The notes beneath the pieces are model-generated. The model ran no database searches. It saw only the letters and a program-made list of their open reading frames with translations, and was not told where the DNA came from. From contig CM074518.1 in assembly GCA_037379345.1 (NCBI GenBank), forward strand, positions 17,732,001 through 17,796,000: a stretch of DNA of 64,000 nucleotides, written 5' to 3'. The stretch comes from Perna viridis. Taxonomy: Eukaryota. How positions within the stretch are numbered: the first letter of the stretch is position 1; every line of letters begins with the position of its first letter. A program made the translations under genes and the position numbers. Shown piece after piece: positions 1 through 62,624 of this stretch.

Positions 1-1577
1 AATTCGTGCAACGCGTAGGATGTGTTTTTTTTCAAAATTATGAAGGAACTAATCTTATTAGAATTGAAATAAATCAAGGAAACTCCATAGTTTAGTTAAA
101 ACATATTTTAATAGAAATAAACAAAATGGATCAAACACAAGTAAAATAACATACTTTTGAAGTCTTCTCCTGAAATTATAATAATTACAATAAAGTATAG
201 GTATACGAATTTAATAGTGTTATTTAAGTTTAACAAAGTAAAGGCGGGACAGTTAAAATATAACATTAGGTGATGCGTACTAATTCAGCTTAAGAAATAA
301 GGAATCTTTTAGTGCATTTAACGAAGAAATATACACGGTCCAACACAACCTGATGTTGTTTTTTTCTGATAGATTTTCTGCAAGACCAAAAAGTAGATAT
401 AAATCTATATTGCAAAATTCAAGAACCCACTGTAGGTCGCTCATAAGTTTGGTTTTTTTCACTGTTATAAAGATGGCATACAAAAAGTAATGGTGAGCAG
501 GCTCGTATATAAGACCAAATAGGCACAGAATACTTTATATAATATTAACTTTATACAAATCAAAGTTTAGAAAGGACGAAGAATGACGAAGTTGAGTTAT
601 CAATTTATTTTAAATTTCTCGGGTCCTAGCAAAAATGTTTAGGAACGGTTAATTTATCACTGGTGTTCAGTAAACACGATTTAAATTTTTGGGTGATTGA
701 ATCTCTTTTAATGCTCCGTCTAGTTTATTCCACTCGACTTTTGTTGATGAAAAAAAAGAATTCACCAGTAACCGATAACCTACAGAGTAGAGCAATGATA
801 TCTTCAACATTCCAAAGCGGACATTCTGTAGTAGATTAAATGGTCGGTGGAGTTAGATCATGTAAATAATCTGGAGCCATTTTATAATATATTTTATGAA
901 ATAAATTTAATTTCTTACGTTTTCATCGATCTTCTAGTTTTTTCCATCCAGTTTCGCGATATACTTGCCCAGATTTGGTGAATATCGGTAAGCCAGTTAT
1001 TATATTCTAGCAACTTCGAGATGTAAAGTTTCTAGCTTTTGAGTGTTTACTATCCCACAATTATTCCAGACTTCTAAAGCATATTCAAATAAAGGTCGGA
1101 TATGCACTGGTCGTTATTTAACCCATGGCTATCGCTCGGTATAAAACAATGCGACAAAAATGGCGAGCCCGTGGTAAAGCAATGATAAAATTGAGTTTCC
1201 GAGACTTGTTTCTTAATCCATGTTTTGTTTTCGTTTCGTTTTGTTTGTTTTGTTTTTAAAATTGTTTTTCTGTGCACTGTTTTCTATTTATTATACTTGT
1301 AATGAATTATATGTATGGCATAAGTATAACCCATGAATCCTTTTCGCTTCTTCATATCGAATTGTCTGTTATCCCAACATCAAGATGTGTATGATATTAT
1401 AAAAAAAAGGGTATATGCCAACTGATACGATAACATAAGAAAACTTTATTCTCATTCGGCATGTCATACAAACACAAGCTCCAAGGAATTTTTGACCGAA
1501 TATAAAAATAATTAATATATGTTCAGAGTAGTATACATGATGGGTTCAGGTCGCATTTCTCGGAAGGTGCGCCCCAA

Positions 1578-1689
1578 TGCGCATGCGCATGGCGTGACAT
1601 CCGGTGGTCGAGGACAGGAAGTGATCTTTGGGTGTGACCCGAAGTGACCATTTACCACTGACCACTGACCCTTCTGACCCTTTTGACCC
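1578..1689. promoter_or_regulatory. Cluster of host transcription-factor-like motifs in the Polinton terminal region
   Basis: TGCGCATGCGCA (NRF1-type palindrome) 1578-1589; ACAGGAAGTG (ETS-type) 1614-1623; three TGACCC half-sites spaced by 3 nt at 1666-1689, mirrored at ~6180-6212. Confidence 0.4.
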
Positions 1690-2157
1690 TTATCACCCAC
1701 GCTATAGTGTATTAGTCCGACGCGGACGAGTTCAAAACGGGACCCGCCTCCTCATTAGCGTCGTCCTATGGATTGGAATCGTTAATTATATAAAAAACAT
1801 TCTTTCATTAGCGTCGTCCTATAGATTTAAATGTGTTAATTACGACCAATGAAATTCAAATGTGTTAATTGCGACCAATGGATTTCAAACGTGTGAGATC
1901 CAATCGCGTGCGGTCGCGGGGAGGATAAACACTCCGGGCATTTTCGAAATCGTCATTCTCTTGCAGACTTTCAGAAGAGAAAATGTAAGAATGTTAACCT
2001 CGAAGTTAGCTTTTGGCGCATGGTTTCCTCCGGGGTTTGGGTTCATTGTAGTGTTTGTTTGTGTTGAACCAAGCCTCGAAGTAAGTTTGCATACTTGCAA
2101 CCAGGGACCCTCGTGGGTAAGGTTCAGTATTGACGTTTTTTAGTTTTCTGTTGTAGA

Positions 2158-2812
2158 ATGAATTCTCAAAAGAGACTCAGCCTGACTAAAACTACGTGAA
2201 ACTGGTGAAAACAACATCTACCGAAAAAGTGATACCGTATCTCGTTAGAAAGTGATATCTTATCCGAAGAAATGAGCTTCCAAGGCTTTTGATGTTTTTT
2301 GCCAGACCTTAATGGAACTGAAAAAGGACGATCTGGTGAGCGTGTTGGCCCACCCAGAAGAAGACATGGAAATATGTTATCCGCAGTATTTAAAATTCAA
2401 TTTAGATGGAGGCGTTCACCTCGAAGTGGACGGTGGAATCGTTCAACTGATCCAAGATCCGTTGTCAATGAACTTTCCCCTCGATCGGTGGAAGGTGTTG
2501 GAAAATAACGTAGATGAAATTTTCAGTGTAGTGGAATGTATAAAGAACAATCGATTAGGTTACATGAGCGAACATTTAGGGGCAAACGTCTACGTCACGA
2601 CCGGAAACGATAGTTGGTGTATGGATATGAGACGTTACTGGATATCACCCGACAACCTGAGACACCCCAGTGAGCATGGAATCAGTTTGACATTCGAACA
2701 CTATGATACATTGTTGGACGTGATGAAAATCATTCCGGACCTAGTTCCGGGTTTAAAGGAGACACTTCCGTGTTATATGACACATCAAAACGTAGAAGAT
2801 GTCGTGTGTTGA
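2158..2812 (+). pseudogene. CARD + PC4-like fusion, left copy (CARD disrupted; PC4 part open as ORF 2312-2812)
   Basis: ATG at 2158. C-terminal HLGANVYVTTG..CMDMRRYW..HPSEHGISLTFEHYDTL is a PC4/Sub1-type motif. CARD region has frameshifts and an internal deletion relative to the right copy. Confidence 0.8.
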
Positions 2813-3416
2813 TTTGAATGTAATCCGGATGGATTGTTGTAATGTTATGAGTAAATGTATTATTTTCGTCTCGGGTTTTATGAATAAAAACGCCATGATA
2901 CATTTTCGATACTTTATTGACAAAATCGACAACTATATCTGTAGCTTCTTCGGGGTCGTCCAGGGTCCTGGTTACGTGCGTCATGGGTCGTCCTGCACAT
3001 TTGTGTATGAGGTAAAATATACGATGTTGTCCACACGCGATAGAATCTTCTTTTTGTACTCGAACTGCGTTGTACGTCCAACTACTGCAATGTTTGTTCA
3101 TAAAATTCAGGTAGGCGTGTTGAAAGGATGGTCTTCCCGTCGGGTCGTAGTATTCTCCTCTCGAATTGGCGTCTACGTATATGGCTACCCAGTGTGTGCC
3201 GGGGAGATTATCCGGATCCGTTTTTCCCACTAAAGCAAAGGGAACGTTTATGTCTGGTGAAGACTGCACTTTATTTTTGCTCCTTGGTTTTACATGACTT
3301 CTGGTGGTGTTCATTGTATATCCCGTATAGCTTCTGCTATTTTTGATGAAACATCCTCTCATTTTTTGCAACTTTCTTGATTTATTAAGGTCATCGATTC
3401 TTATGCGAGGATGCAC
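2730..3416 (-). CDS. Adenain-like cysteine protease (Polinton maturation protease), left copy with a foreign N-terminus
   Basis: PGTHWVAIYVD..GEYYDPTG..VQ..SIACGQH retains the catalytic His, Asp, Gln and Cys. The protease-homologous part is ~2890-3255; sequence upstream of PDINV does not match the N-terminus of the right copy. Confidence 0.85.
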   Translation of the reverse strand: MHPRIRIDDLNKSRKLQKMRGCFIKNSRSYTGYTMNTTRSHVKPRSKNKVQSSPDINVPFALVGKTDPDNLPGTHWVAIYVDANSRGEYYDPTGRPSFQHAYLNFMNKHCSSWTYNAVRVQKEDSIACGQHRIFYLIHKCAGRPMTHVTRTLDDPEEATDIVVDFVNKVSKMYHGVFIHKTRDENNTFTHNITTIHPDYIQINTRHLLRFDVSYNTEVSPLNPELGPE

Positions 3417-3467
3417 GGTGCTCCGCTCTGGTTTCCACTTGTATTTGATATTCTGACGTTGTACGTT

Positions 3468-3796
3468 TTACGTTTTTAATACAGCTTCACGATCTTTGTT
3501 CCGAAATCTTCTCTATACAGTTTCATTTATAAGTGTCACATCTGTTTTATTGGCTTTTTTCATTCCTCCAGCTGGGCTACCACGAGGTCTTTTGGGGTCT
3601 CATTTTCTTTTGTCAGTTCATTCTTTGATTTGCAATGTACCCTACCTGTCGTCCATTGCACGTGTATGGCACCACGACTTGTGATCTCTTCTAAATGAAT
3701 CCCTCGACAGGGAACTATCTTGCAAATCTTTATTGCTCCGGGTGCGTCCATCTCATTTGCGAGTCAACCAAGAAGTGTCCACATATCCTTTTTCAT
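3468..3796 (-). pseudogene. Decayed small ORF (about 110 codons) between ATPase and protease; unknown, possibly death-fold
   Basis: ATG at 3796, just after the ATPase stop. In the right arm the homologous TAA lies about 10 nt before the protease ATG. Needs one frameshift and several stop corrections. Confidence 0.4.
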
Positions 3797-3798
3797 CT

Positions 3799-4478
3799 CT
3801 ATTTATACTTTTCCTTATCTAAGAACACATCCTGAAATTCCCATGGGAAAATGTTGCTTCTCAATCTCAAGTTGTCTAGAGTGTCCTGTTTCATTTCGAT
3901 CAATAAATATCCGTGGGGTTTGGCAGTGGCATACTCGTACGATTTCACAAAGTATTTTGTCTTATTGGGGAACATTTGTTGGGCCATGGTCATGGCCTGT
4001 GATACGTCTCTATGATTTTTAAAAAGAACCAGGTAATGAGCATTCAGACTGATGGTTCTGTGATACTTGGTTTTGTTGAACAGATTCTGAACCAGCAACA
4101 TAACACCTATATTTTTATAGTGAGAATATTTCGTGAAGAGATGCAAGATAGATTCGGTGACCGAATTCATCATATTGTCTAGAATAAGCAAATATTTCTC
4201 TCTGGGATCCAAGGTGTCAAGGTCGGGGAGTCTTTGTACAAAGTCGACATCCTGCATGGTTCCATAAATGGTCTGGTACACGTCGTAGCACCACGTTATC
4301 CGATCGGGTCTAGGCATCATCATGTGCTTTACGTTTTGAACGAATCGGCGTACAAACATCGTTTTTCCACTTCCGGTGGGTCCTCCTATGATGCTGGTAA
4401 AGGGATGGGCAAAGGGGATGAAGTGGTCATCGAAGTATCCTTTGGGAACGTTTTGAGTTTCATCCTGGATCGATTGGT
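3799..4478 (-). CDS. A32/FtsK-family DNA packaging ATPase of Polinton type (5' end truncated at the arm junction)
   Basis: HPFTSIIGGPTGSGKT (Walker A), LLILDN (Walker B, DD>DN), FTKYSHY, VQNLF, RTISLNAHYLVLFKN.RD, PHGYLLI, RLRSNIFP. Confidence 0.93.
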
Positions 4479-4605
4479 CTCGTGGTAGACCAGCTGGAGG
4501 AAAGAAAAAAGCCAATAAAACAGATGTGACACTTATAAATGAAACTGTATAGAGAGGATTTCGGAACAAAGATCGTGTAGCTGTATTAAGAACGTAAAAC
4601 AGTGC

Positions 4606-5013
4606 ATGATGAACACGACAGACATTGACGCCATAGTGAAAAAGCACCCGGTCACCAAACACGTATTTGAAGGGATGTATGCGAGGAACAGATTCCCCAG
4701 AGACATAAACGTTCCCTTTGCTTTAGTTGGAAACACAGATCTGGATAATCTCCCCGGCACACACTTTGTAGTCGTATACGAAGACGCCAATTCGAGAGGA
4801 GAATACTACGACCCAACAGTAAGACCACCCTTTCAACACGCCTACCTGAATTTTATGTACAAACATTGCAGTAGTTGGGCGTACAACGCAGTTCGAGTAC
4901 AAGAAGAAGATTCTATCGTGTGTGGACAACATTGTATATTTTACCTCATACACAGGTGTGCAGGACGACCCATGACGCACGTGTCAAGGACCCTGGACGA
5001 CAAAAAACAATAA
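4606..5013 (+). CDS. Adenain-like cysteine protease, right copy (native N-terminus, C-terminus clipped)
   Basis: MNTTDIDAIVKKHP..FEGMYARNRFP..LVGNTD..PGTHF..GEYYDP..VQ..CGQHCIFYL. Ends prematurely at RTLDDKKQ, where the left copy continues RTLDDPEEATDIVVDFV. Confidence 0.88.
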   Translation: MMNTTDIDAIVKKHPVTKHVFEGMYARNRFPRDINVPFALVGNTDLDNLPGTHFVVVYEDANSRGEYYDPTVRPPFQHAYLNFMYKHCSSWAYNAVRVQEEDSIVCGQHCIFYLIHRCAGRPMTHVSRTLDDKKQ

Positions 5014-5748
5014 ACGGCAACTTCTACGTTTTGATGTGTCATATAACACGGAAGTGTCTTCTTTAAACCCGGAACTAGGTCCGGAATTGACTTTCATCAC
5101 GTCCAACAATGTATCATAGTGTTCGAATGTCAAACTGATTCCATGCTCACTAGGGTGTCTCAGGTTGTCGGATGATATCCAGTAACGTCTCATATCCATA
5201 CACCAACTATCGTTTCCGGTCGTGACGTAGACGTTTACCCCCCCCCCCCACCCCTTAAATGTTCGCTTATGTAACCAAATCGATTGTTCTTTATACATTC
5301 CACTACACTGGAAATTTCATTTACGTTATTTTCCAACACCTTCCACCGACCGAGGGGAAAGTTCATTGTCAACGGATCTTGGATCAGTTGAACGATTCCA
5401 CCGTCCACTTCGAGGTGAACGCCTCCATCTAAATTGAATTTTAAATACTGCGGATAACATATTTCCATGTCTTCTTCTGGGTGGGCCAACACGCTCACCA
5501 GATCGTCCCTTTTCAGTTCCATTAAGGTCTGGCAAAATACATCAAAAGCCTTGGGTCCTCTTCTGGGCAGGAGTTCCAGTAAGGTTCTCGCCCTCGCCGC
5601 TCTGGTCGGTTGATTCACGATGTATTCGCTCATTTCTTCGGATAAGATATCACTTTCTAACGAGATACGGTATCACTTTTTCGGTAGGTGTTGTTTTCAC
5701 CAGTTTCACGTAGTTTTTAGTCAGGCTGAGTCTCTTTTGGGAATTCAT
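5010..5748 (-). pseudogene. CARD + PC4-like fusion, right copy (frameshifted)
   Basis: From ATG 5748, with one +1 correction near 5660: MNSQKRLSLTKNYVKLVKTTPTEKVIPYL-LESDILSEEMSEYIVNQPTRAARARTLLELLPRRGPKAFDVFCQTLMELKRDDLVSVL, a caspase-2/RAIDD-like CARD pattern. Followed by PC4-like region; further frameshifts at the poly-C run (~5240) and ~5090. Confidence 0.85.
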
Positions 5749-6356
5749 TCTACAACAGAAAACAAAAAACGTCAATACTGAACCTTACCCACGAGGGTCC
5801 CTGGTTGCAAGTATGCAAACTTACTTCGAGGTTTGGTTCAACACAAACAAACACTACAATGAACCCAAACCCCGGAGGAAACCATGCGCCAATAGCTAAC
5901 TTCGAGGTAAATATTCTTACCTTTTCTCTTCTGAAAGTCCGCAAGAGAATGACGATTTCGTCCGGAGTGTTTATCCTCCCCGCGACCGCACGCGACTGGA
6001 TCTCGCACGTTTGAATTTCATTGGTCGCAATTAACACATTTAAATCTATAGGAAGACGCTAATGAATGAGTGGTTTTATGTAATGAACAATTCCAATCCA
6101 TAGGACGACGCTAATGAGGACGCGGGTCCGTTTTGAACTCGTCCGCGTCGAACTAATACATGATAGCGTGGGGTGGTAAGGGTCAAAAGGGTCAGAAGGG
6201 TCAGAATGGTCATTGTCCAGAATGCTCAGTGGTCAACAGGGGTCACTTCTGGTCCTTGGCTACCGAATGTGATGTCATGTGCATGCGCATTGAGGTGCAC
6301 CTCCCTGCACCACCCGAGAAATGCGATCTGAACCCATCATGTATACTACTGTTCAG

Positions 6357-16800: not shown

Positions 16801-19705
16801 AAATTGTGTCAGGAATAAACTAGAAACCTGTCTTAACAGACACCTCTACATCAATTTTTCAGTCTGAAAAGTTTTGCTGTACCTGGTATGTGGTAGTTAA
16901 TGCTGATTAATGTGAAATCATAAATTTAATGAAGTAGCTCTGTAAGACACATCATTCTAACAAAATATACATGTACAAGTACCCAATACATTAAATACAA
17001 CAGCTATTGAAATAGTACTTTTTTCATTCAATTACGAGCTAATAATATAATTGATTTTGTTCCAAATACATAGGCTTATACAGCATCTGCAAACCATAAT
17101 TCATAGATGTTAGCTTAACCAAGTTATAAGCTTCTTTTTGACATTTCATTGGGTAAGCCTAGCAAGTATTATATCTGACTGATATTTTTCTTTTTTGTTT
17201 TTTAAAATTGGTCAATCATACAATGTACCAAACTGTTATTCTTACCATCATCAAAACCATAGGTTCTTTTTTTATAAGATTCCCACGTAAGAGTTCCATC
17301 CTCTACCTCATGATCTTTCCACATTCTGTCAGTATCTGTGGTGATATAACGTTTCTGGACATACTGTATCCATTCCCTTAATTCTTCCTCTGTGACCTCC
17401 CCATCTTTGTTCTTATCAATTTTATCAACAATAAATCTGAAAATGTAAAGTGTAACATGCAGACCTGTTACTTGGCTAACAAAAGTTCCAAAAGTACCAA
17501 GTAAGTATATGTACTGCATACGGTAGATGTGGATTTTCATTTTTGTATCCTTATTTACATGTACATATAGTTATTAAGTCCACATCAATATAAGTTTGAT
17601 ATTGCCAATATAAAGGTGATGCAAGGTACAGATAAAATTATGCTTTTTTGGTATACATATGTATTGTGCCTTATTTTTATGTAACTATTGTTCTTTCTAC
17701 ATCTGTATATACAGATTTTTATTTCATAGAAAACCATAAATTCCTCTCTTTTATAAATTAATCAAAGCAAGAACAATAACGTTAGAAAAGTGACAATTTT
17801 ATACATCCGATTCCAAATGATCATGTGGTCTTTAGATACTTCTGAGTTAAAAATTCACATGCATAAAGACTCTGCAACTTAATTACAATAAACTCATTGA
17901 ATTTGGGTTCTGGCATAAATGTAAATTTTTCAAGATACTCCCCTGAAATAAACCTTTACTTTAAGGTGAAAACCTTAAATTTTTGCATAGGAACATACAA
18001 TGTATATTTTGTATATGTAGGTTGTTTTGGCAATGTCCAATCAAGCAGCTTCTACTTGTCCTCTTACAATAGGACAAAGTCATTCAAGTATTACAATACA
18101 ATGACACAAAACAGGCAAAATCCTTACTATGGGATTTGCAATTTCAAGGAACGTGTACATGTATGTGTTGATCTGTACTGTACTTACCCAAGTCTTTCCT
18201 TGCTTTCCTCTGGTGTCAGATCATCAAATGTTTTAGATTCTTCTTTTCCTAGAAATGCCTCATGGTCATAATCATTGTTATGTTCACCATTCTCTTCATG
18301 TGTCAAGTCACTTAATTTCTGACAGAAAAACAATTTATGATTTCAACTATCAATTTAAGTTGTTTATAGAGTACATATTTGTTCATAATGATAAAACAAA
18401 TCATGAGTGTACAGGTACAAGATCACAATTAACTCCCCTTGATTTTTTCGTTGTATATAAATATAGTTCTTGTTTTAGAGTGTCTCTTCCTGAATTTATT
18501 TTTGCTTTCTTAAACTTTATTGCTTTATATTCGCTGCAGAAATGTAGGGCAAGGATCAAAATTACAAGAGATCTTCTTTCATTCTGTAATTTTATTTTTT
18601 TGTGGAAATTGTGATTTGGCCCTGTGGAAAAAGGTCAAAATCGATGACATTTGGCAGTGGTCACTTTTCATGTCTGCAGGGTCTCCAAAGTATACATGTA
18701 GGTGTTATTAAAAATGGTGAATTTTTCAGAAACTCACAGAAAACTGGTTTTATATATGTTTCTATATTTAATAGTGAAGTTTTACTGAGTTTGAAATGGT
18801 GAAATTTTTCTTTTTGTCAAAATGTGCATTGATTAGCACTGCGAAATTAATTGTGGTCTTGTAAATGTACCTACAAGTACATGTAACTACCAAATGTACA
18901 ATGTACATACATGTACATGTAGTTCCCTTTAACATCTGCAACATTCTAGGAATTGAAGTATCCAACCAACATTTACTGAATAGAAAAAATATTCTGATCT
19001 TAAGTACATGTAAATATCTTGTGAAGTGCTCAGATTAGATTGCAAATGGAAACAGTTAAGAGTACAGGGCTCAAATTTCACTGGGAAAACAGTTTAATGG
19101 CTTTCTCGTTTAATTTAATATGTGTTCATACATCTTTAGATTTACGAATAGTTACATCATTGTTGGTATTATACAATTTTGTAAAATTTCCATATGGGGT
19201 TAAAATAAGATCTTGCTACATGAATTTCAAAACTCCTTAGAATCCTGGACTGTGCTCTTTATGGAAAGGTGCTAATACCAGAATTAGGAACAGTTTCCCC
19301 AAATAATTATACAAAATGATACAAATGTACATGTACATGTATAGATGTACTTGTATATGTATATTTAGTTTTTCATAACACAAGCTATTTGAGTTGCTGG
19401 ATACACTTTGATGCATTATCATCATAAACAGGATAGTACATGTACTTCAAAATTAATATGGTTAACATTTATATGTACCTTAATCTGGAAATGTGTCAGT
19501 GTGTTGAATTATAAAAGTTATTTTGTCACTGCCCCTGTTGGCCCTTGATTGTTACAATGTACATGTATAACAAAATACTTCAAACTTTGAACTATACCTT
19601 GTCATGAATTCTATTTTTATGGTCTTCTTCTCCTGGTTTTGGAATGGCTGAGCAGTATGTAACACTTAATAGTCCAAGCACTACATAGACAGTGGAGGCT
19701 CTCAT
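10820..19705 (-). CDS. CALU: Calumenin (CREC-family multi-EF-hand secretory-pathway Ca2+-binding protein), about 320 or 328 aa
   Basis: GT-AG coding exons with consistent phases: 19705-19598 (signal peptide [20 protein letters not shown]), 18318-18188 ([22 protein letters not shown]), 17436-17246, 15495-15326, 14399-14339, then either 13217-12997 or 12939-12743, then 10924-10820 ending [23 protein letters not shown] is the calumenin C-terminal signature. Confidence 0.96.
12743..12939 (-). CDS. CALU: Calumenin alternative penultimate exon B
   Basis: AG..GT bounded, 197 nt, phase 1 to 0, open: [66 protein letters not shown]. Confidence 0.92.
12997..13217 (-). CDS. CALU: Calumenin alternative penultimate exon A (acidic linker variant)
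   Basis: AG..GT bounded, 221 nt, phase 1 to 0, open: [74 protein letters not shown]. Confidence 0.9.
14060..14145. repeat. Intronic minisatellite, 27-bp unit x3
   Basis: TTTTCACCTGGAT(A/G)TCTGGTGATCAGG repeated three times. Confidence 0.9.
14445..14668. repeat. Intronic minisatellite, about 56-bp unit x4
   Basis: TGATATAGAACTTGGCTCGACAAATTAATTATTTCAAATCATTTGAAAATTAAGTG repeated four times. Confidence 0.92.
16571..16801. mobile_element. Small MITE-like element
   Basis: Imperfect TIRs TAGGCAAA..TGTTTCCTGCTACC / GGTAAGCAGGAAACA..TTTGCCTTA. Confidence 0.55.
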
Positions 19706-24749: not shown

Positions 24750-25875
24750 TTAAAAATACTTAGGAATATTTTTTTGCTAGAAGTGGAAGTTTTCTTACGA
24801 CTAGAAAATAGTTGAAAGTACAAGCAACAAAATCCATGTATAGTCTATTACAAAACTGTCGTAAACATAATTTATCTATTAAATGTCAATTAGATTTGTT
24901 TGAAAAAGCCGTTTTACCAATTATTTTGTACGGTTCAGGAATTTGGGGTTTTGAAAATCTTGATATTTTGGAGCAGGTTCAACTAAAATTCTACAAACTT
25001 ATTTTGAATCTTAAACAATCAACACCGAACTGTATAGTATACGGCGAGCTAGGGAGATTTCCTATTTCATTATCGGTAAAGATTAGAATGATAAAATTTT
25101 GGTGTCGTTTAGTAAATGGAGATGAGAATAAATTTTCTTCTATTCTTTGTAAATTATTGCATGTGAATTTTGTAAACTATGGCTTAGAAAGCAAGTGGTT
25201 GGCATTCATTAAACATATTTTTGATGAGTGTGGTGTATCGAATGTTTGGCGTAACCCAGAGTATTTTTCCGCCGATTGGATTGAAAAATGTGTTGAATTA
25301 AGACTAACTGATCAGTTCAAACAAAATTGGTCCTCTGATGTATTCAACTCTTCAAAAACATTAAATTATAGGATATTCAAGGTAGACTTTGGATTTGAAA
25401 AATATATATCTATTTTACCATCATATCTGATGTTTTATTTATGTAAATTTAGGTGTAGCTCCCACATATTACCAATTGAAGCGGGGAGGTGGACAGATAC
25501 ACCTAGAAACGAGAGATTACGTACGTTCTGTGATTCACACGATATAGGTGACGAATTTCATTATATTTTTTCTTGCAAGTTTTTAAGGGAGAAAAGGAAA
25601 AAATTCCTCCCAATTTATTGTTAAATTGGGCCAACTATTATCAATTTTATCACATTATTCAATACTGCTCATGTCGCTATTTTAGAAAATTTGGCAAAGT
25701 TTATAAAAGTTACTCTTTTTAAGGTCGTCCCTCCTGGTTAGATGACAACAATATTTTTACATAAATATGTACCATTCTTGTTACACATGCACTGTAAAAT
25801 TGTATCATTTTATATTATGTTTGCAATTTTTCGATAACATATGTTTATGAGAATAAAGTATTCATATTCATTGAA
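24750..25875 (+). mobile_element. 5'-truncated non-LTR retrotransposon 3' end (RTE-X/L2-like; clade uncertain)
   Basis: ORF 24812-25624 with PIILYGS.IWG, STPN..VYGELGRFP, KFRCSSHILPIEAGRW..C..IGDEFHYIFSC; 3' end GTTTATGAGAATAAAG followed by an ATTC-like tail. Confidence 0.85.
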
Positions 25876-40687: not shown

Positions 40688-41263
40688 AAAGAGAGTAATC
40701 AAGGGAACCAAGGTTATAGCGATAATCAAAAGAATGTTATCCAGGGACAAAGACCAGACATGGAAAACAGACATACACAACAAAGAACACAAAGTAACTA
40801 AAATCATACATATAAAGTAACAAAAGCAAATGAGCAACTCGGACTCCACTTAAAACTGGGAGCATGGACCAGGTGCACTGGTAGGGTAAGCGTCCTCTGC
40901 TTTTCAAGAAACACCCGCCGAGTTGCTCATAAAAAGTCAAGTCCGGGGTAGACAAACGAGGAAATGAAAACTATGACCCGTTGAATAAATCAGTTTTCAT
41001 GGTGCAGATGGTACACCATAATCCACGAGTTGATGATGACGACCATAAAACTTCTGTAGTGATGACTTCAATCTTGTAGCAACATAATCCTGTTCCAGAA
41101 ACCTATTTGCTAGATTTCTAGCGCGATACAAAAAGTCTGTGTAGTTTCGACAAGCTCTGGCATAACGAATGAGTTGTGATATGAACATTCCATACGCAGG
41201 TGCTGAGGGGATGTTGCCACAGATGAATGAAAAGTCATCACGTTTGTCGTAAAGTTTGGTCAA
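40688..41263 (-). mobile_element. Penelope-like retroelement RT 3' fragment
   Basis: TKLYDKRDDFSF..NIPSAPAYGMFISQLIRYARAC..QDYVATRLKSSLQKFYGRH; same family as the 52.5, 57.8, 59.5, 60.8 and 62.6 kb copies. Confidence 0.75.
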
Positions 41264-43471: not shown

Positions 43472-45990
43472 TTCAAAGGATTTAGTTAAGTGTTGAATGC
43501 TAAAAAACCGTATATTTAAACTCAAATAGAACATTATAGCATATAAACATGCCTCAGACCCTTAATGTGTAAAAGTGTCTGATTTTTTGGAGTCTTTTTA
43601 AAAGTTTTGTAGTTTTTGTTTTTTTCACTTTCCGTACGACCCTGTTTTCTTTTAGTTTTGAATTGTTCTATGATATTTAACTTTCTGTTATGTTTTTAAC
43701 AAAAAATCTGGTAAATTGCAAAAAGAAAGAATCAATTCGGCTGAGTTTATCTGAATGACACCGGTATAAATGTCAAAGACGGTTTTTACCGAAATCGAAA
43801 TGTCGAGTTTTACTATTTTGGACAAGTGACCAATGGCAATTTCCGTGATTTACATTCGTACTTTAGTCGTCGATACAGGCAGAACCTTCTGCAACAGCAC
43901 CAGATAGACTTATTACAAATTTAACATCTCTATATCTGACAGTTTTGCTCGCGACATTGATGTTTACGTAACGTTCTCAAGGTTCCTATTTTTAAAGTTG
44001 ATTTGACGAATACAATAATAGTAATTATCTTATCCAACGACAATATACACCTGCTTGGAATCATAGAAAATTATTATTTTATTTCTTTGTCTGGCGATAA
44101 AGATAAAAAATACTATTTTAATTGTCATTTCGAACAATATAACATTTGAAAAGTTCAAGTTCGTGTTAACAATTCAAGTTGAAACATCCCACTTCTCAGA
44201 AATTAACAAAATTGACATTTTATTCATGAATTTCTTCAAGGTTTTTATTCTATTTCCACAAACGCGTTTTAAGAACGCTGAAATCGAGCCAGTCTCACTT
44301 ATATGATTTACATTCTGGATTAAATGTTATATTTTGTCAAATTTTAAATTCCAGTTGTAAAACCCGAAGACTTTTGTAGTTTTAATATAGTTTAATCCTT
44401 CAATAATATATGATTTTAACAATCGATATTTATTGTTTAATCTCGTCGTTTTTTTCTTAGTCTAAGTTTTATACTTAGTTTATTCGGTATGTTTTTTTTG
44501 TGTCTTTAACTATTCTATAAGAGTTTGGTCATGTGACTTTTGAGGGATATTGCTTCTATTGACCGTTTAGTACTTTGCATGTAAACTGAGTCCTTTCGAC
44601 GAAAATTAAGCCCCGTTTATTATCATTGCAAAAGTATTTGAGATGTTTTGATAATGAATACGAATATTGTTAATGACTATTACGGCGCTTATTTGTTCGT
44701 TTTGATCGTATATGACTGCTTGGATGGCTGTATCCTGTATATCTCACTAAAATCTTTAACCTACGACTTATCTAAACGTTTGTTTAAATATTCTGCTCTA
44801 AATGTACATGTTTTATTTTACTGTTCCGAGATTAAAGGTTACAAGTTGAATAAATAAACAGTGATTTTAATCGGCTAGATTATAATTCCTTGATAAGATC
44901 AAATTGGAGTGACAAATTTGACAAACGATTGTTCCAGTGAATAACATTTTGACGCAAAATTAGTGGAAGCAGTTCTCTGTTTTTGCAATTTAATACTGTT
45001 AGGAAGATAGTCTCTTCCGATGTCCAAATACATCATAAAATGAAGAATAATTCATTCCGTCCAAATGGAAAACATGACAATGGTGTTATATCATTCTTAA
45101 TTTCTGCTCAGGAAGTTGATTTCAATTCAAACATTCAAACTTTATTTATACAACGTTCCTTTATGTGGTAGAAATAATCCTGTTTTAATGTGACTCATCA
45201 AGCCTAAAATGTAATCCAGATCTCAATGTAACAAGTGTAAAGGAAAAGAATTGATCGGAGAAAACACTTCGTGACGAATCATTTTTTAACGAAGAGCAAC
45301 TAAATGTTTCTATGAATGGTAAAATCATGTTGGCCCTAGGTTTTAAATGAAATGAAGAAAGTTTCGGCGGAGACGATACAACAGTAATACAAAAAAAAAA
45401 AAATAACAAGACAAAAATAAGATTATATCAACAGGTTTGATATTTCAAACAACACTAAACATGAATCTGACACCAAGAAAATCAATTAGGTCACTTATTA
45501 GATTTCCCAGTTCTAAAATTTGATTTTATTCGGAATCATTCACAAAATAACACCAGACATCTAAATCATGAATTAATAATTCACTTTGTGGTTGTCAATA
45601 CGGCATCTTTTGCTTTTATTCGATTAAGATCTCTGTTTCTGAAAAAGGCCGCACCGATTGATATAGTGAAAGCGAGATAAATAACAATAAATTGTCTAAG
45701 ATGTTCACTACAGAACTATTATGTATTCGTACTACCGATTTGTTGGAGCCCGAATTACTTAATACGAGTTAAGGTTTTATGTGTTTACCTCCGATAAGAT
45801 CTTTAGATCCAAAACACATCGATCTGTTTTATTTTGTCGTTATGCAGAGCATATTTATACATATAAATAATAATACAATGATATTCAAACAAGTTAACAG
45901 ACAGACATATCAACCCTTTCCACACAAATGAAAACCAAAACACGACAATTAAAGATAAGGAGGGATTTGTGTGTCTTACACATGGAACTA

Positions 45991-46623
45991 TAGTCGGCGT
46001 CACATAAATAACATACTGTTAAAATTTGAATAAAAATATTTTCTACGACTTTATTGACACCTACCGTCGTTTAAATTGTCTTAAATGACTTGCTCATTCG
46101 TTTAGCCAAACGGCTTCTCCCTAAACATTGAATCGTTAAATTCCGGTCAGATTTTAATTCTAGGTGGCAATATTTACATTGTAAAAAGTCGGCCATGTTT
46201 ACAGTGATCGGGTTGCTAGGAGATGTTGTTTACGTTTAAATGGTTTGTCCAAAAACCGAAGAACCCAGAATGCAATTCGGTGTTATTTCGGATATCTCGG
46301 ATTTATTTTACGCGAACAACGTATAATACCGAGAAGTTGATCAAGCAGACGATTGTCACCGGAGTTCGACGGGAACTTACGCACTTCGTTTGTAAACAAA
46401 TCGTCCCGTAAAAACCAACATGGCGGATATTAGTATGGGATTTTCCCGTAAGGATTTGTTACGCACGATTTAAGCTAATAAGCGACTTGTTTTTGAGAAA
46501 CTGTTTGGCTAAACGAATGAGCAAGTCATTTAAGACAATTTAAACGACGGTTGGTGTCAATAAAGTCGTAGAAAATATTTTTATTCAAATTTTAACAGTA
46601 TGTTATTTATGTGACGCCGAGTA
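45991..46623. mobile_element. MITE with about 130-bp near-perfect TIRs and TA target duplication (Tc1/mariner-type)
   Basis: TA(G/C)TCGGCGTCACATAAATAACATACTG..TTAGCCAAAC at 45991-46120 is inverted at ~46495-46623; TA at 45989-45990 and 46624-46625. Confidence 0.88.
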
Positions 46624-47079
46624 TAAGTACAGAAACAAACTTCATTGAAAACTTCGTCGACAGCGTCAATACTTCATTAATAACTTACATAAAATTTATT
46701 GTATACCAAACCTTCACTAGTGTCCTTCACGGTATAATGCTTGGTCTTCCGCGTCCACCACGAAACCCCTTTAAAAACGTCTCATTAATTTACTCACTAA
46801 AATAAAGTATGGTTCAAGAGTAACTGTGAGAAAACTGAAAAAAAAAACACTGTACAAGTGGCGTGAATCAGAGATGGATTTATATAAAAAGATCCAAAGA
46901 CCTACAGGAATGACGCTCTTACACATGTATATCTCTCTGGTAAATTGACCCTTCGTTGTATTATAAAACCGACATGTTCTTATAAAACCAATTTTGCTAT
47001 AGCAATTAAGGGACCAGAAGTTATGCCTACCTTATATTTGATAGAAAGGCTTATATTGTAAAGAAGCACAGTTATTCCT

Positions 47080-51619: not shown

Positions 51620-52454
51620 CTGAAAAAAAAAAACGAAAACTATTTTATGAATTTATAATAGGAATGCTGTAATATGTACTTATAACAAGATGGAATATCG
51701 ACGACCTTTAGTTCCGAACAAACCCTACATTTCAGTAGTAAAATAGCTTTTATCGGTAAGTATCTTTTACTACTGACATAGATATAACAGAAATAAAGTT
51801 ATATTTCTTACACACACAAAAAAAAAAAACAAACAATTCATTGGTTAATCAGCATTAATTGTTATAGTCTGTTATTTACTGACTCCATAACAAAATGTAT
51901 GGATCATCATCATATAACACTTTTTTGCTGTATATCATCCTCTCGACCGGAAATCGTGATTCGTATACGTAAATGTATCCAATATGATAATAACACATAG
52001 TGCCAGTATTATAGAGTCGTATGTACACATGAATACCACGTTCAGAAAATCGTTCATACTTGGCCATGTCTCGGATTATATATATATCAAATTCTTGAGT
52101 TACGTTTTTGTATATTATTCATGAGAGATGATAAAAACTATAGGTTGAAAAGAATTGCAATACATGTCAACAAGAAAGAAACACACCAATACGTGTTACA
52201 GTTTTATCTGTTTTTATAAAAAAATCAATTTGGAAGTTGCCGCATGATCACATTTTCCTAGCACGTAATACTGATTATTTAAATCAATACTAGATACACA
52301 ACATAATAAGCAAAAAACAAAAACAAAAAGCAAAAAAACAAAAACAAATACAAACAAAATCACAAGGAAACAATTATTAATCATTTTATGTACGGTATAG
52401 TTTCTAAAATTATTTATTGCTTTATTAATTAATTCTTGTTGTGTTTAAGAATAA

Positions 52455-52650
52455 CCAAGGGAACCAAGATTCTAGTACAAATCAAAAGAATGTAATCCAG
52501 AGACAAAGACAGGACATGGAAAACAAACACTACACAACAAAGAACAGAAAGTAACTAAAATAATACATGCAAAGTAACAAAAGTAAATGAGCAACTTGGA
52601 CTCTACTAAAAACTGGGAGCATGGACCAGGTGAACTGGTAGGGTAACATA
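52455..52650 (-). mobile_element. Penelope-like element 3' fragment
   Basis: Matches 40690-40890. Confidence 0.75.
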
Positions 52651-53238
52651 TGTTTTCTGTCGTTGAAACATAAACAGCTTCTTGTGTAATAATGGTTCCC
52701 AGTTTTGTAGTCAAGTTAAAGTGAAAGTGATCTGCATGTAACCATGTTGAAAATAAATTGGTGGAATATTATTCACCTTAAAATAAAATGACTTACCACA
52801 TTAAATATTAAAGCAAGTGTAAAATGATGGGTTATTTTTTAAATTGTTTATCATATACTGGTTTCTTTTGCAGTGATAATTCATACAAATTTGATTACAA
52901 TTACTAATGATGGTTGTTTGTTATTTAAAGGAAACAATAATATGTAACTGGATTACATCCTTGCTTGATAAAGCAAGTGCTCTCTTATGTCAAAACTATT
53001 TATCTCATTCGCCTACTTTTCCATCAGTGATAAATTTTTCGCAATAATTGAGGGCATATTTGGGTCCTCTTTAAAGTAGACCTGTAGAATTAATCTTATT
53101 TGATTAAATACATCAGAGTATTAAGTAATCACGAAAACAATGACCCATTGCCTGCCTAAAGGAAACGGTGTAGAATGACGAGAAAAGTTATTACATCCTG
53201 TATTTGACAGGACAAAGGAGAAATATCATCAACCTATT

Positions 53239-56200
53239 TGTGGAGAAGACATCGGGAAACACAACGCAATATACTGTAACGTAAGGTAGCGTCAAGACAA
53301 CGACGTCGACTTAGAATTAGAATAACAAATGAACGTAAAACTACATGGTTGACTTTGTTATCTGTCTTAGAGTGCATTATACAGTTACATTAAGGCGCAC
53401 TGTTTCGCACACCAAGTTACACCCCCCCCGTCAAATTTTGTAAAACTTAAAATTATAAGTTGAAATTTGGTGGCTATATTGTTCAAATGTAATCAAGCAT
53501 TTATACATAGACAGATGTAATATATGTAATGGTTAACGAGTATGATTTAAAGGAAGAATGGTATCCGGAACGTTTCAGTCCCCTCTCGTATTAGGTTCTC
53601 TCCTCAGCATCAGATGACTGATTTTCAAAATACCTTATTTCGCAAGACCTTTTGGATCTAAAATTGTGAGAGAATGAATCAAAAAGGGTCTTATTATTTT
53701 TACCCTTTTCCCACCTACTCCATGCATGCTTTCATCCTGTGGTAGTGTCTAAGTGCCTGATATTTTATAAAACATAGTAATTGGCTGTTAGTTTTGGAAA
53801 GGCACCTCTTATTTGTACTAAGTCTCAGTAATATTTTTTTCAGTATGTTACCATGGCTACTGGATTTTACAACAATAATCACTAAATTACTCATAAATGA
53901 CTTGAACCTCCATACACGAAGGATTTCAAAAATATGCACTTTTTTTATGACAAAACTCTAGAAATTTCTGTGCGGACTGCCTCAAAACAGCTTTATTTCA
54001 CAAAATGAGACCCAATTTTCAGAAATGACCTAACTATATTGTACTAATTTACGAAAGTAATGCCTTGACCATCGGCAATGGAGAAGTTCAAATCGATACG
54101 AGCTGGAAATCAAAGTGCGATCACATGATTTTTCAGAAATTCGAAGAGGCCAAGGAGAATGCGGATCACGACAAAATGGAATTATTTGTGACATTCGAAA
54201 ATTTAACAAAGAAAAAGAAATTGTTGGAAAAGAGCAACGAACAGTTACTTGAAGCCATGAAATATGAGGAGATCGAGAAAGAAATAGTGGAAACTGATGA
54301 GTATACAAATACCCTAGAGATAAAGCTCAGAAAACTTCGTAATTTTTTAATATTGCAATGAGAATCATGTACAACTTGTACTATGGTATGTGACACAAAA
54401 ATCGTGTTTCAATCGTTAAACAGAACAATTAATGTTCCAATCATTTAAGACACTAGCACGTTAAAGAATATATATCAAAAAACACGTGTCATCATTGTAG
54501 AAAGTTTGTGTGTCGTTTCTTATGATTAAGTGACCCTTCCGATACAAATAGTTCCTCAACAACCTAAAAATTCAAGGCAGTACTTTTTTGAGCAACGTGT
54601 TCTCTTTTTATCTTGAATGTTACAATACCAACACACCTGCAAACAGAAAATATGGAAACTGCAAGATTATAAACACGGGATCTTTTTGGTATTAAAAAAC
54701 TGACGAACTTACAAAGCGAGGAAGAAGCAGTATCATACTTTAGAGAATCGAGGACTCTAATGAGCAAGGCAGGGTTCAACTTGAGATATTGGACTTCAAA
54801 TATCGAAAATGTAAGAAACCTAGCAAAAGATGTATTGGATTCAGACGAACACACTAAAATATTAGGAATGAGGTGGTACAGTAAATCAGATGAATGTTTC
54901 TTTCCGAAAAAAGTTAAAATTTCAACACATCTTGTAACAAAGCGTGAAATATTGAAACAATCATCGGCCATATATGGCACACTAGGTCTATTGAGTCCAG
55001 TAACAATAAGAGCCAAAATGGCTCTACAAGAGTTATAACGTGAAGATTTCGAGTGAAAATGTGTAAAAAATGGATTAAGTTAAAGACAAACATCGAGTCT
55101 GTTACTGAAACGGTATTACCACGACACTTCTTCAATGAGAGTTCCACTTCAATTGAGTACACATTACACGTAGTTATGAACATAATAACCAACGCTTATG
55201 GTGCAGTTGCAAATCTATGTTGCGGAAGCGATAGCGCTCTTGTGATGTCAACGAAAATTGTAGCCTCGTTGAAGGAACTCACACCACCTCATCTGGAACT
55301 CATGGTAGCAGTTTTAGGGGCCCGATTAGTTAATCACCTTCGTTTAACTCTGGATTATATAAATATTACACTGTGGTAGGAGAGTCTAATTGTTTATGAT
55401 GGCTAAAGTCGACAAAAACAATAAACAATTTATTGCGAACCGAATTAAAGAAAAACAAGATCTTACAAAGTCGAGAAAATGGACATATTGTCCTTCTGCA
55501 AGCAATCCGACTGACCTGATAACTAGAGGCATTGCAGCTGAACAATACAGACAGATGGAGCATTCTACGGCTTAAATGACCTGATTTATTAAAATACAGT
55601 TCAAATTATCCGGATGCAATTGAAACTGACCTATCTTTATCAGTTCTTTTACAAGAGGAAGCTCCATGTACGAGCTCAGCAAAGGACAACTTGGTCGACC
55701 AGGAATTCATGTGGTTATAAACATTGACCGGAAATTATTGCGTGTAACATCTTATGAAAAACGATTTGTGTACAACACTAAACTCGAAAACAAATTTCGG
55801 AAAGTATCCAAATGATTTACAGAAATCAGCATGAGTGTGGATTACACTTCATCAACAAGTACCACTTATACAAGAGTACAACGCAATGATACGAACCACT
55901 TCACCAAAAAAAAAATCAACTAAAATGATTATTTGATGAACAAGACCATACGAGATGAGTGGATGTATACACAATGCACCCCTACCTGACAATGCAAAAT
56001 CCTCGTATATTTTGCCTACAAACCATCCACTATCAAGACTGGTTGTAGTTGATGCGCATGAAAAAAGTATCATACTCAGGAGAAAATGCAACGATTGCAC
56101 ACGCAAGACAAACATTTTGGATCCCCACTATCAGACAGCTCGTTTAACTTGTCGAAAAGTTAAAGGACATTCTTTTCCAGCCCAGGAGATCCACCCTCTT

Positions 56201-57767: not shown

Positions 57768-58175
57768 CAAAGGAGTAATCAAGGGAACCAAGGTTATAGC
57801 GGTAACTATAAAGTAACTGAAATCATACATACAAAGTAACAAAAGCAAATGAGCAACTCGGACTCCAATAAAAACTGGGAGCATGGACCAGATGAACCGG
57901 TAGGGTAAGTGTCCTCTGCTTTTCTAGAAACACCTGCCGAGTGAGTTGTTCATAAAAAGTCATGTTCGGGGTAGACGAAAGAGGAAAGGAAAATATGACA
58001 CGTTGAACAAGTCAGTTTTCATGGCGCAAATGGATACACCGTAGCGATCCACGAGTTCATGACGATGACCATAAAACTTCTGTAATGATGTCTTCAATCT
58101 TGTAGCAATATAACCCTGTTCCAAAACCCTATTTGTTAGAAGTCTAGCGCGATACAAAGTCTGAGTAGTTTCGGA
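57768..58175 (-). mobile_element. Penelope-like element 3' fragment
   Basis: LYRARLLTNRVLEQGYIATRLKTSLQKFYGHRHELVDRYG plus the shared 3' module. Confidence 0.8.
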
Positions 58176-60794: not shown

Positions 60795-61300
60795 TGGAGT
60801 GTTCATATCACAACTCATACGTTATGCCAGAGCTTGCCGAAACTACGCAGACTTTTTGTATTGCGCTAGAACTCTAACAAATAGGCTTCTGGAACAGGGT
60901 TATGTTGCTACAAGATTGAAGTCATCACTACAGAAGTTTTATGGTCATCATCATGAACTCGTGGATCGTTATGGTGAATCCATCTGCACCATGAAAACTG
61001 ATTTATTCAACGGGTCATATTTTTCCTTTCCTTGTTTGTCTACCTCGGACTTGACTTTTTCTGAGCAACTCGGCGTGTGTTTCAAGAAAAGCAGAGGACG
61101 CTTACCCTACCGGTCCACCTGGTCCATGCTCCCAGTTTTTAGTGGAGTCCGAGTTGCTCATTTGCTTTTGTTACTTTGTATGTATGATTTTAGTTACTTA
61201 ATGTTCTTTGTTGTGTATGTCTGTTTTCCATGTCTGGTCTTTGTCTCTGGATTACATTCTTTTGATTACCGCTATAACCTTGGTTCCTTTGATTACTCTT
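60795..61300 (+). mobile_element. Penelope-like element 3' fragment
   Basis: GVFISQLIRYARACRNYADF..LLEQGYVATRLKSSLQKFYG plus the shared 3' module. Confidence 0.8.
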
Positions 61301-61629
61301 TCCCACATCTTTACCATGATGACGCGCCATTCAGTTTCAAGCCATAGAATATACTGTAGATATATCACTTATCTGTTAGAAGAGAGATTATGTCTTTGTC
61401 ATCACTATGCTTTGGTCTGTTGATAGACTTATAATTATTATTCGCCAAGCGAGGAAGAGCGACAACAGGAATATATCAGTGACAGGTTAAAATGGTTACA
61501 GACCACATCGCTGAATACAATTAAATAAACGTAAACGAATCATCACTTAAATTGCGAAATAAAAATGTGGATGTACCGGACGGGAAGATTTTTTAGATAT
61601 ACGACGAATTCAGTAGACATGTATATATA

Positions 61630-62075: not shown

Positions 62076-62624
62076 ATGCATAATCAAACCGAGTTTTTTT
62101 TAGCAAATATGTGTCTAGCGAAATCAACTACTTTCTTAGATTATGCAATAGTATGAAATCTTTAATTGATGCAGTGCACCAAATGTAAATTAGAAATTGA
62201 ACGGGAATGACAAATTATCAAATAGAGTTGACATTTAATGAATTGGTTTTGGTGTCATTTAGCATGAAAAGAGATGTGTTTCAAATAATTTATTTCAAAT
62301 AGATAGCTGATTTCTTCTCTTGATAACGAATTTGTGGCACCAATATATTTTTGAATTACGCTGTCTTCATTAGAATAATTTATAAGTTATTTGCTTCAGT
62401 TGGAATGCGGAAAGATCAACCAAGGTTAATGTTTTTTACATAGTGGTTTACAAAAAACAGTCAGGGACAAAATTAATCAAAATTATGTGTATGAAATATG
62501 TAAGAAGATATTTATATTGTTCCCATTGAAAAAATTCATATTATTGCTTTGATATTTCTGAAAGATTTTTCGACGCTTATTGCTTCGCTTTTAACTCTAT
62601 CTTGGCAAAATCCCCTCAACACCT

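What the first reader, a model, noticed from the sequence alone, without database searches (positions are those of the whole stretch)
1521..6356. Fold-back mini-Polinton: two copies of the same genome end joined in inverted orientation and integrated as one unit
Seen: about 2 kb at each end are inverted copies that extend well beyond a TIR and include CARD-PC4, the protease and part of the next ORF. Only 3587-4478 (ATPase and the start of the small ORF) is single copy. Termini are intact and the 6-bp TSD is perfect. Known: Polintons use a retroviral-type integrase (6-bp TSD) and protein-primed replication from TIRs. Inference: the structure formed before integration, like a snap-back or copy-back defective genome of a linear DNA virus, and was replicated and integrated in trans by a helper. 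That would be a fossil of a defective-interfering or satellite form, and indirect evidence of an extrachromosomal replicating stage.
Basis: partly seen in the sequence, partly recalled or inferred. Interest (0 to 1): 0.8.

Follow-up and report, generated by a model that had tools for sequence, protein, structure and literature searches.

The report
Decayed Polinton with two identical ends
A broken 4.8-kb remnant of a virus-like transposon carries the same gene-bearing end twice, in mirror image, and has lost its middle; the structure is real, but similar ones are known and one copy cannot show that it ever replicated as a helper-dependent mini-virus.

Summary
The structure is real. A 4,824-bp Polinton derivative (1527-6350) has AGTAGT termini, a perfect 6-bp target duplication and two inverted arms (2,060 and 1,872 bp, 5.2% diverged) carrying CARD-PC4 and protease around a 5'-truncated packaging ATPase. 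The arms are patchier than reported: each has its own deletions, and 209 nt of the left arm has no counterpart. They diverge neutrally. In the protease, 10 of 10 changes at conserved columns are arm-specific, so the duplication came early, at or near insertion. It does not single out a copy-back mini-genome. A target duplication also survives later deletion or gap repair. Full-length butterfly polintons with ~2-kb gene-bearing TIRs including the protease are described, as are same-end-twice derivatives of cut-and-paste transposons (Galileo 2RT copies, Mu killer). Best reading (0.40): a parent with long gene-bearing TIRs that lost its interior. Copy-back before integration: 0.25. Early gap-repair extension: 0.25. 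Uneven arm divergence and a shared CARD frameshift fit later arm-to-arm conversion. The predicted parental gene order is not seen in fetched relatives. No second copy or parent could be searched for. Interest 0.35.

The parts
1521..1526 (.). Left target-site duplication (GTTCAG)
1527..3586 (+). Left arm of the inverted repeat (2,060 bp), terminus AGTAGT
1562..1664 (.). Subterminal segment, far more diverged from its partner (6207-6305) than the rest: 16 of 69 gap-free sites at 1562-1630 plus indels; CpG count 7 against 2
2158..2812 (+). CARD-PC4 gene, left copy; broken by a frameshift near 2246 shared with the right copy and by a 74-nt deletion in CARD
2862..3252 (-). Adenain-type protease, left copy; 5' part missing
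3256..3464 (.). 209-nt segment found in the left arm only, in place of the protease 5' end; origin unassigned
3465..3586 (.). Innermost duplicated block (122 nt, 96% identical to 4479-4600)
3560..3751 (-). Small open frame (63 codons) after the ATPase; no relative found, so not shown to be a gene
3799..4449 (-). A32-like packaging ATPase, 5'-truncated (relatives carry ~100 further N-terminal residues with a C2H2 finger)
4478..4479 (.). Junction between the truncated ATPase region and the right arm
4479..6350 (-). Right arm of the inverted repeat (1,872 bp)
4606..5013 (+). Protease, right copy; 3' end deleted
5012..5748 (-). CARD-PC4 gene, right copy; shared frameshift near 5660, 14-nt G-rich insertion at 5242-5255, 3' end deleted
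6351..6356 (.). Right target-site duplication (GTTCAG)

Best explanation
A dead deletion derivative of a Polinton whose terminal inverted repeats already extended about 2.1 kb or more, over the CARD-PC4 and protease genes. Shown: one insertion unit with both termini and a 6-bp target duplication; both arms decayed neutrally; the protease copies were close to intact when they became two; integrase, polymerase and capsid genes are absent. Inferred: (1) in the family's past one end was overwritten by a copy of the other, giving long gene-bearing TIRs; (2) such an element was inserted here by the family integrase; (3) the interior was lost by one or more deletions, the visible one ending in the ATPase 5' part and in or at the right TIR (4478/4479); (4) later, arm-to-arm gene conversion homogenised the 5'UTR-CARD-PC4 tract, further deletions with filler hit each arm, and one subterminal segment was exchanged or hypermutated. 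The copy cannot make a working product and has no shown function.
For: Precedent for full-length polintons with ~2-kb TIRs holding hexon and adenain twice (10.1101/2025.02.07.637071, section 12). Early duplication: 0 shared against 10 arm-specific protease changes at 44 columns invariant in 10 relatives; 1 against 11 at 55 columns with 4 relatives. Neutral arm divergence: 10 synonymous and 29 non-synonymous differences on 169.5 and 652.5 sites, p=0.27. The locus deletes readily: three arm-specific rearrangements of 74-212 nt, two of them deletions with short filler, arose after the arms diverged, so a central deletion is one more of a kind already seen here. The shared CARD frameshift needs no broken parent: a later conversion tract predicts 4.5 shared and 5.4 arm-specific amino-acid changes at 78 informative columns; 4 and 6 were seen. 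The tract is less diverged than the protease (25 of 860 against 23 of 298 sites, p=0.001).
Against: TIRs this long are rare: 46-1,447 bp in 134 intact vertebrate Mavericks (PMC8097293), 100-1,500 bp in general (10.1101/2023.08.22.554363). None of the 5 Polinton-like loci fetched shows a long inverted repeat or CARD-PC4, though all are partial and at best 68% identical in DNA. The direct test for conversion (shared against arm-specific changes, CARD-PC4 against protease) is not significant: p=0.09, 0.14 and 1.0 with 10, 4 and 2 relatives. The sequence predicted by this reading is the same as under the two main rivals.
Confidence: 0.4

Rival explanations
1. First reader's model. During strand-displacement replication of an extrachromosomal genome the nascent strand left the template inside the ATPase gene, annealed to itself near 3586 and copied back to the terminus. 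The panhandle mini-genome (stem ~2 kb, loop 0.9 kb) was made double-stranded and integrated by a helper's polymerase and integrase.
For: Geometry fits: two copies of one end, one junction, both termini, a 6-bp target duplication. The duplication is early. Polintons lacking polB are reported to stay mobile in butterflies (10.1101/2025.02.07.637071, section 13). A shared frameshift would also follow if both arms were copied from one already damaged molecule.
Against: No second copy in the window; the host genome could not be searched. A single copy-back gives arms of one age to the terminus, but divergence is 23% at 1562-1630, 2.9% in UTR-CARD-PC4 and 7.7% in the protease (scan permutation: 0 of 5,000 for the subterminal peak; p=0.0002 for the low tract), so later exchange must be added. 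No homology extends across the junction on the single-copy side. The predicted parent order is not seen in relatives.
Confidence: 0.25
2. Extension in the chromosome. A normal short-TIR Polinton was inserted. Soon after, while the family was active, a break or excision was repaired from the right TIR using a left TIR (of this or another copy) as template. About 2 kb was copied inward and joined to the ATPase region, leaving the target duplication untouched, as proposed for Galileo 2RT copies and the Goblin MITE.
For: Described for other TIR elements: 38 of 170 Galileo copies have extended or recombinant TIRs, with this repair model and a remark that inverted-repeat expansion is reported for Polintons (PMC3573991); Goblin (PMC3814204); Mu killer has both TIRs from one end (PMC3440606). 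Uneven arm divergence shows that exchange or localised mutation acts on these arms.
Against: The event must be early (more than 0.49-0.59 of the element's age ago). Keeping an old right terminus predicts high divergence out to the tip, but the outer 35 nt differ at 1 site while the next 69 differ at 16 (p=0.001). Excision of Polintons has not been shown experimentally (recalled).
Confidence: 0.25
3. Two elements: a second copy inserted in opposite orientation inside the first, its end recombined with the first element's right TIR, and a deletion removed the middle.
For: Would give one target duplication and two like ends; the subterminal mosaic looks recombinant.
Against: Two active copies should differ mainly at synonymous sites; the arms do not. 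It needs three events. Two independent insertions side by side would not share the flanking hexamer (chance 1.3e-4 to 5.8e-4).
Confidence: 0.05
4. Assembly or library artefact (fold-back read or chimera).
For: Palindromes are a known artefact class (recalled); no reads were available.
Against: The arms differ at 85 of 1,626 sites with 56 transitions, each carries its own deletions, each has its own derived protease changes, and a target duplication flanks the unit.
Confidence: 0.02

Closest known systems
Polinton/Maverick (adintovirus-type) elements and their decayed copies
   Same: AGTAGT//ACTACT end motif, 6-bp target duplication, A32-like ATPase, adenain-type protease (PMC8097293). Most genomic copies are degraded (96% in vertebrates).
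   Different: 4.8 kb against 12.7-24.6 kb; no integrase, polymerase or capsid gene; inverted repeats ~2 kb with genes; a CARD-PC4 accessory gene not found in my literature searches.
Butterfly polintons with ~2-kb gene-bearing TIRs (10.1101/2025.02.07.637071)
   Same: About 2-kb inverted ends that each carry the protease plus one other gene.
   Different: Those are full-length, multi-copy and carry hexon in the TIR; this one carries CARD-PC4, is internally deleted, decayed, and known from one locus.
Galileo 2RT copies (PMC3573991) and the Goblin MITE (PMC3814204)
   Same: Internal sequence next to one TIR repeated in inverted orientation at the other end of a non-autonomous copy.
   Different: P-element and Tc1/mariner superfamilies; the recruited DNA is shorter (longest Galileo TIR 1,260 bp) and is spacer or subterminal sequence, not whole genes.
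Mu killer of maize (PMC3440606)
   Same: Internally deleted element, both TIRs from one end, partial gene copies in inverted duplication.
   Different: A Mutator derivative with a demonstrated silencing effect; no transcript or small-RNA data exist for this locus.
Copy-back defective viral genomes
   Same: Panhandle geometry with one end copied twice.
   Different: The 25 papers listed of 94 concern mainly RNA viruses and none of those 25 mentions polintons; membership needs helper-dependent replication, which was not testable here.

Membership tests
Polinton/Maverick | TIRs ending in (AGT)2//(ACT)2 or (AG)3//(CT)3 | tested here: met
   motif from PMC8097293
Polinton/Maverick | 6-bp target-site duplication | tested here: met
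Polinton/Maverick | Packaging ATPase | tested here: met
   present but 5'-truncated
Polinton/Maverick | Adenovirus-type maturation protease | tested here: met
   two broken copies; profile hit to a viral cysteine protease E 8e-7; BLASTP E 5e-13 to the L004 protease that matches Peptidase_C5; no direct Pfam hit
Polinton/Maverick | Protein-primed polymerase B and rve integrase | tested here: not met
   no such ORF; no match to those genes of fetched relatives. So a derivative, not an intact Polinton
Polinton/Maverick | Major and minor capsid genes; length 13-25 kb | tested here: not met
   4,824 bp; no match to the presumed capsid ORFs of L004/L005 (those ORFs are labelled from recall, no library hit)
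Long gene-bearing-TIR polinton (butterfly type) | About 2-kb inverted ends each holding the protease and another gene | tested here: met
Long gene-bearing-TIR polinton (butterfly type) | A full-length autonomous parent with such ends | not testable with these tools
   no eukaryotic genome collection; the 5 relatives fetched are partial and distant
Copy-back defective genome | Both ends copied from one end, single junction | tested here: met
Copy-back defective genome | Arms of one age out to the terminus | tested here: inconclusive
   divergence is uneven, but later conversion can explain that
Copy-back defective genome | Helper-dependent replication or spread (same junction at several loci, free form, interference) | not testable with these tools
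   no second terminus in the 64-kb window; host genome and reads not available
Extended-TIR deletion derivative (Galileo 2RT / Mu killer type) | Same end twice with internal sequence recruited, non-autonomous, target duplication kept | tested here: met
Extended-TIR deletion derivative (Galileo 2RT / Mu killer type) | Formed in the chromosome from a short-TIR copy; hairpin RNA silencing the family (Mu killer) | not testable with these tools
   needs alleles, parent and small-RNA data

The most novel reading that the evidence does not exclude
A fossil copy-back defective genome of an animal Polinton: a 5-kb panhandle mini-genome that kept both origins, was replicated and integrated by a helper, and may form a mobile satellite family. 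It would be indirect evidence of free, strand-displacement replication of Polintons in an animal germline, and a view of how long gene-bearing TIRs arise. A further possibility is that read-through of the mirror structure makes hairpin RNA that silences the family, as Mu killer does.
Probability: 0.25. Interest if true: 0.7.

Novelty: new variant of a known kind. Interest (0 to 1): 0.35.

Why it matters
Whether animal Polintons replicate as free linear virus genomes is still argued from gene content; virions have not been observed (10.1101/2023.08.22.554363). A repeated copy-back junction with different target duplications would be a cheap genomic test of that. As it stands the locus shows only that a Polinton's ends can be gene-bearing mirror copies and that the arms later exchange sequence, which warns against dating or ordering events from TIR identity or an intact target duplication. 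The CARD-PC4 fusion may be an undescribed accessory gene.

Tried and rejected
1) The 209-nt left-arm segment as a piece of the integrase C-terminus or of the polymerase (a resemblance from recall): its 70-codon open frame found 0 hits among 1.84 billion representatives, none in Pfam or PHROGs, no convincing tblastx match to 5 loci, and scored 39 against a shuffled median of 40 on 21 reference ORFs (protease control 64 and 82). No match elsewhere in the window. Left unassigned. 2) The spacer 3465-3798 or the block 4479-4605 as the usual core-type gene or a capsid 3' end: scores 42 and 40, within shuffles. 3) The 29 nt at 4450-4478 as templated filler from the promoter: score 23, at the 95th percentile of 300 shuffles; not accepted. 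4) Synonymous excess between arms (two active parents): not found. 5) The shared frameshift as proof of a defective template before integration: not accepted, because later conversion fits as well. 6) CpG decay as the cause of the subterminal peak: it remains at non-CpG sites (12 of 56). 7) Accession adjacency to get the parent's gene order: 8 proteins looked up, no accessions given. 8) Phage collection: no match. Rfam: 0 matches. Atlas: CARD families only at 0.79-0.81; nothing for the small ORF. 9) L006 (36% over 58 residues) was dropped from the comparison of gene order as probably unrelated; 5 of 6 loci were used. Host species not identified.
Full report
Observation. The element runs from 1527 to 6350 (4,824 bp), at 43% G+C against about 30-35% in most of the window. 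It starts with AGTAGT and ends with ACTACT. The hexamer GTTCAG flanks it on both sides; the chance of such a match is 1.3e-4 to 5.8e-4. Self-comparison finds inverted arms at 1527-3586 and 4479-6350 and no other match in the 64-kb window at E<1e-3; the terminal 20 nt occur only at the two ends.

The arms are patchier than reported. They pair without gaps at 1,626 positions, with 85 differences (5.2%; 56 transitions; K2P 0.054). The left arm lacks 74 nt of CARD. The right arm lacks 147 nt holding the 3' ends of PC4 and protease. The left arm has 209 non-homologous nt where the right has the protease 5' end. The right arm has a 14-nt G-rich insertion. The two deletions carry 3 and 10 nt of filler, and the second has a 5-nt repeat at its two breakpoints. 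Such independent damage on each arm argues against an assembly artefact.

Genes. CARD: Pfam E 8.5e-12. PC4-like domain: Pfam E 3.7e-4, below cut-off; PDB PC4 E 0.006. Only 4 relatives of CARD-PC4 were found among 30 candidates, all fragments or degenerate, 75-82% identical. Two of them cross reading frames at the same place in both arms, so both arms share a frameshift in CARD. Protease: 150 of 150 candidates scored, the best 70% identical; 3 of the 120 listed carry PF00770; the alignment profile hits a viral cysteine protease structure at E 8e-7. ATPase: 234 relatives among 357 candidates, up to 67% identical among the top hits. The closest have about 100 more N-terminal residues with a C2H2 finger; confident homology here starts at 4449, and the first in-frame ATG lies past the start of Walker A, so the junction truncates the gene. 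No integrase, polymerase or capsid sequence was found. The 63-codon small frame and the 209-nt segment stay unassigned.

Mode and timing of divergence. Differences between the arms are neutral: 10 synonymous and 29 non-synonymous on 169.5 and 652.5 sites (p=0.27). The arms are therefore not two separately selected elements. In the protease, at 44 columns invariant in 10 relatives, 6 changes are left-only, 4 right-only and 0 shared; with 4 relatives 6, 5 and 1 of 55; with the 2 closest relatives 7, 7 and 8 of 84, where lineage differences are not filtered out. The first two counts put the duplication earlier than 0.59 and 0.49 of the element's age (95% bounds). The best estimate is the very start of decay.

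Divergence is not uniform: 23% at 1562-1630, 2.9% over 5'UTR-CARD-PC4 and 7.7% in the protease. The subterminal peak was reached in 0 of 5,000 permutations and remains at non-CpG sites; the low tract has p=0.0002 after removing that peak. A later arm-to-arm conversion over CARD-PC4 predicts 4.5 shared and 5.4 arm-specific amino-acid changes at 78 informative columns; 4 and 6 were seen. The direct contrast with the protease is not significant (p=0.09, 0.14, 1.0), so conversion is a fitting inference, not a proof. It removes the need to read the shared frameshift as damage carried in before integration. The subterminal peak is not a simply retained old end, because the outer 35 nt differ at one site only (p=0.001).

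Relatives with context. A scan of prokaryotic genome contigs returned 6 loci from 169 candidate stretches; 5 look like Polinton DNA included in genome bins (inference). The nearest, L001 and L005, are 68% identical in ATPase DNA. In L001, L002, L004 and L005 the ATPase is followed at once by a small core-type ORF; in L002, L004 and L005 integrase follows within about 1.4 kb; in L003 one ORF lies before the core-type ORF. The protease lies 4.85 kb (L005) and 4.3 kb (L004) downstream on the same strand, or 1.4 kb away and converging (L003). In the window the gap is about 0.34 kb and matches none of these genes. Either the parent had another order or a second large deletion is hidden there. None of the five shows CARD-PC4 or a long inverted repeat, but all are partial and distant. 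Labels such as core, PZ and capsid for these ORFs are recalled; Pfam confirmed integrase, polymerase (L003) and protease (L003, L004) only.

Mechanism. Three routes give the same sequence. (A) A parent with long gene-bearing TIRs, then internal deletion. (B) Copy-back before integration and insertion by a helper. (C) Early repair in the chromosome, primed from one TIR on the other. The target duplication cannot separate them, since all changes in A and C lie inside the termini. A has direct precedent: butterfly polintons with ~2-kb TIRs holding hexon and adenain twice (10.1101/2025.02.07.637071; I read passages and sections 12 and 13; figures and supplements not seen, and they may hold further examples). 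A also uses a process visibly active at this locus. Against A, TIRs in 134 intact vertebrate Mavericks are 46-1,447 bp (PMC8097293; passages and section 7). C has precedent in Galileo (38 of 170 copies; PMC3573991, passages), Goblin (PMC3814204, passages) and Mu killer (PMC3440606, abstract and introduction), but must be early. B fits geometry and timing, and polB-less polintons are reported to remain mobile, but nothing here shows replication or spread. I weigh A 0.40, B 0.25, C 0.25, nested insertion 0.05, artefact 0.02. A itself implies an earlier event of type B or C in the family's history.

What is known. It works like an extended-TIR non-autonomous derivative and derives from a Polinton; it is not an intact Polinton (no polymerase, integrase or capsid). 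I found no description of a fold-back or copy-back mini-Polinton, nor of a CARD-PC4 gene in Polintons, in ten searches. I saw only the listed part of the larger ones (30 of 153, 30 of 85, 25 of 102, 30 of 388, 15 of 45, 25 of 94), and Repbase and subscription journals are not covered, so non-autonomous Polinton entries may exist. Also seen as passages: 10.1101/2023.08.22.554363, 10.1101/2024.01.15.575659, PMC11131425, PMC8502044, PMC5499653. The host is an animal, probably a mollusc (inference from composition, Atlas taxa and the title of L005; not tested).

Verdict. A real and unusual locus, a new variant of a known kind. The exciting reading is not excluded (0.25) and can be tested with one genome search. 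Interest 0.35.

Noticed in passing
window 2158-2812 (+) and 5012-5748 (-): CARD fused to a PC4-like ssDNA-binding domain as a terminal accessory gene. Only 4 relatives found; not found in print. Might couple a death-fold decoy to an SSB (inference).
   Followed up: partly
window 1961-2157: Splice-donor-like and acceptor-like sites upstream of the CARD-PC4 start, kept in both arms, suggest a spliced 5' leader (read by eye).
   Followed up: no
window 2883, 2913, 3546, 4514, 5009: Poly(A) hexamers. The right arm has lost the segment holding the CARD-PC4 signal, so a transcript from the right promoter could run through the antisense protease into the loop and form a hairpin.
   Followed up: partly
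window 1544-1549 and 6328-6333: The target-duplication hexamer also occurs inside the TIR, 18 nt from each terminus; probably chance.
   Followed up: partly
window 1562-1664 / 6207-6305: Short subterminal tract with 14 transitions among 16 differences and CpG 7 against 2: ectopic conversion from an older copy or local deamination; unexplained.
   Followed up: partly
window 3256-3464: 209-nt segment of unknown origin, open for 70 codons in frame with the left protease remnant; no relative found.
   Followed up: yes
window 500-1200 (-): Decayed coding-like sequence resembling the 3' end of a non-LTR retrotransposon ORF just left of the insertion (translation; label recalled). A similar ORF at 24812-25624 had no Pfam hit.
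   Followed up: no
window 17202-17570 (-): EF-hand exon (Pfam EF-hand), calumenin-like by recall: a host gene lies about 11 kb to the right.
   Followed up: partly
window 40692-41234, 52440-52680, 57808-58158, 59521-59610, 60793-61347, 62588-63110: Dispersed repeat family in both orientations, 79-94% identical; Penelope-like by recall.
   Followed up: no
window 54673-55379: BEL/Pao retrotransposon fragment (Peptidase_A17).
   Followed up: no
window 45989-46625: MITE-like element with 131-nt inverted arms, 97% complementary.
   Followed up: no
L005 (JACCHT010000004.1), L001-L004: Polinton-like DNA sits in bacterial genome records; L005 also holds satellite arrays and looks like host DNA included in a symbiont bin. 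L004 carries a TBP-like ORF next to its protease.
   Followed up: partly
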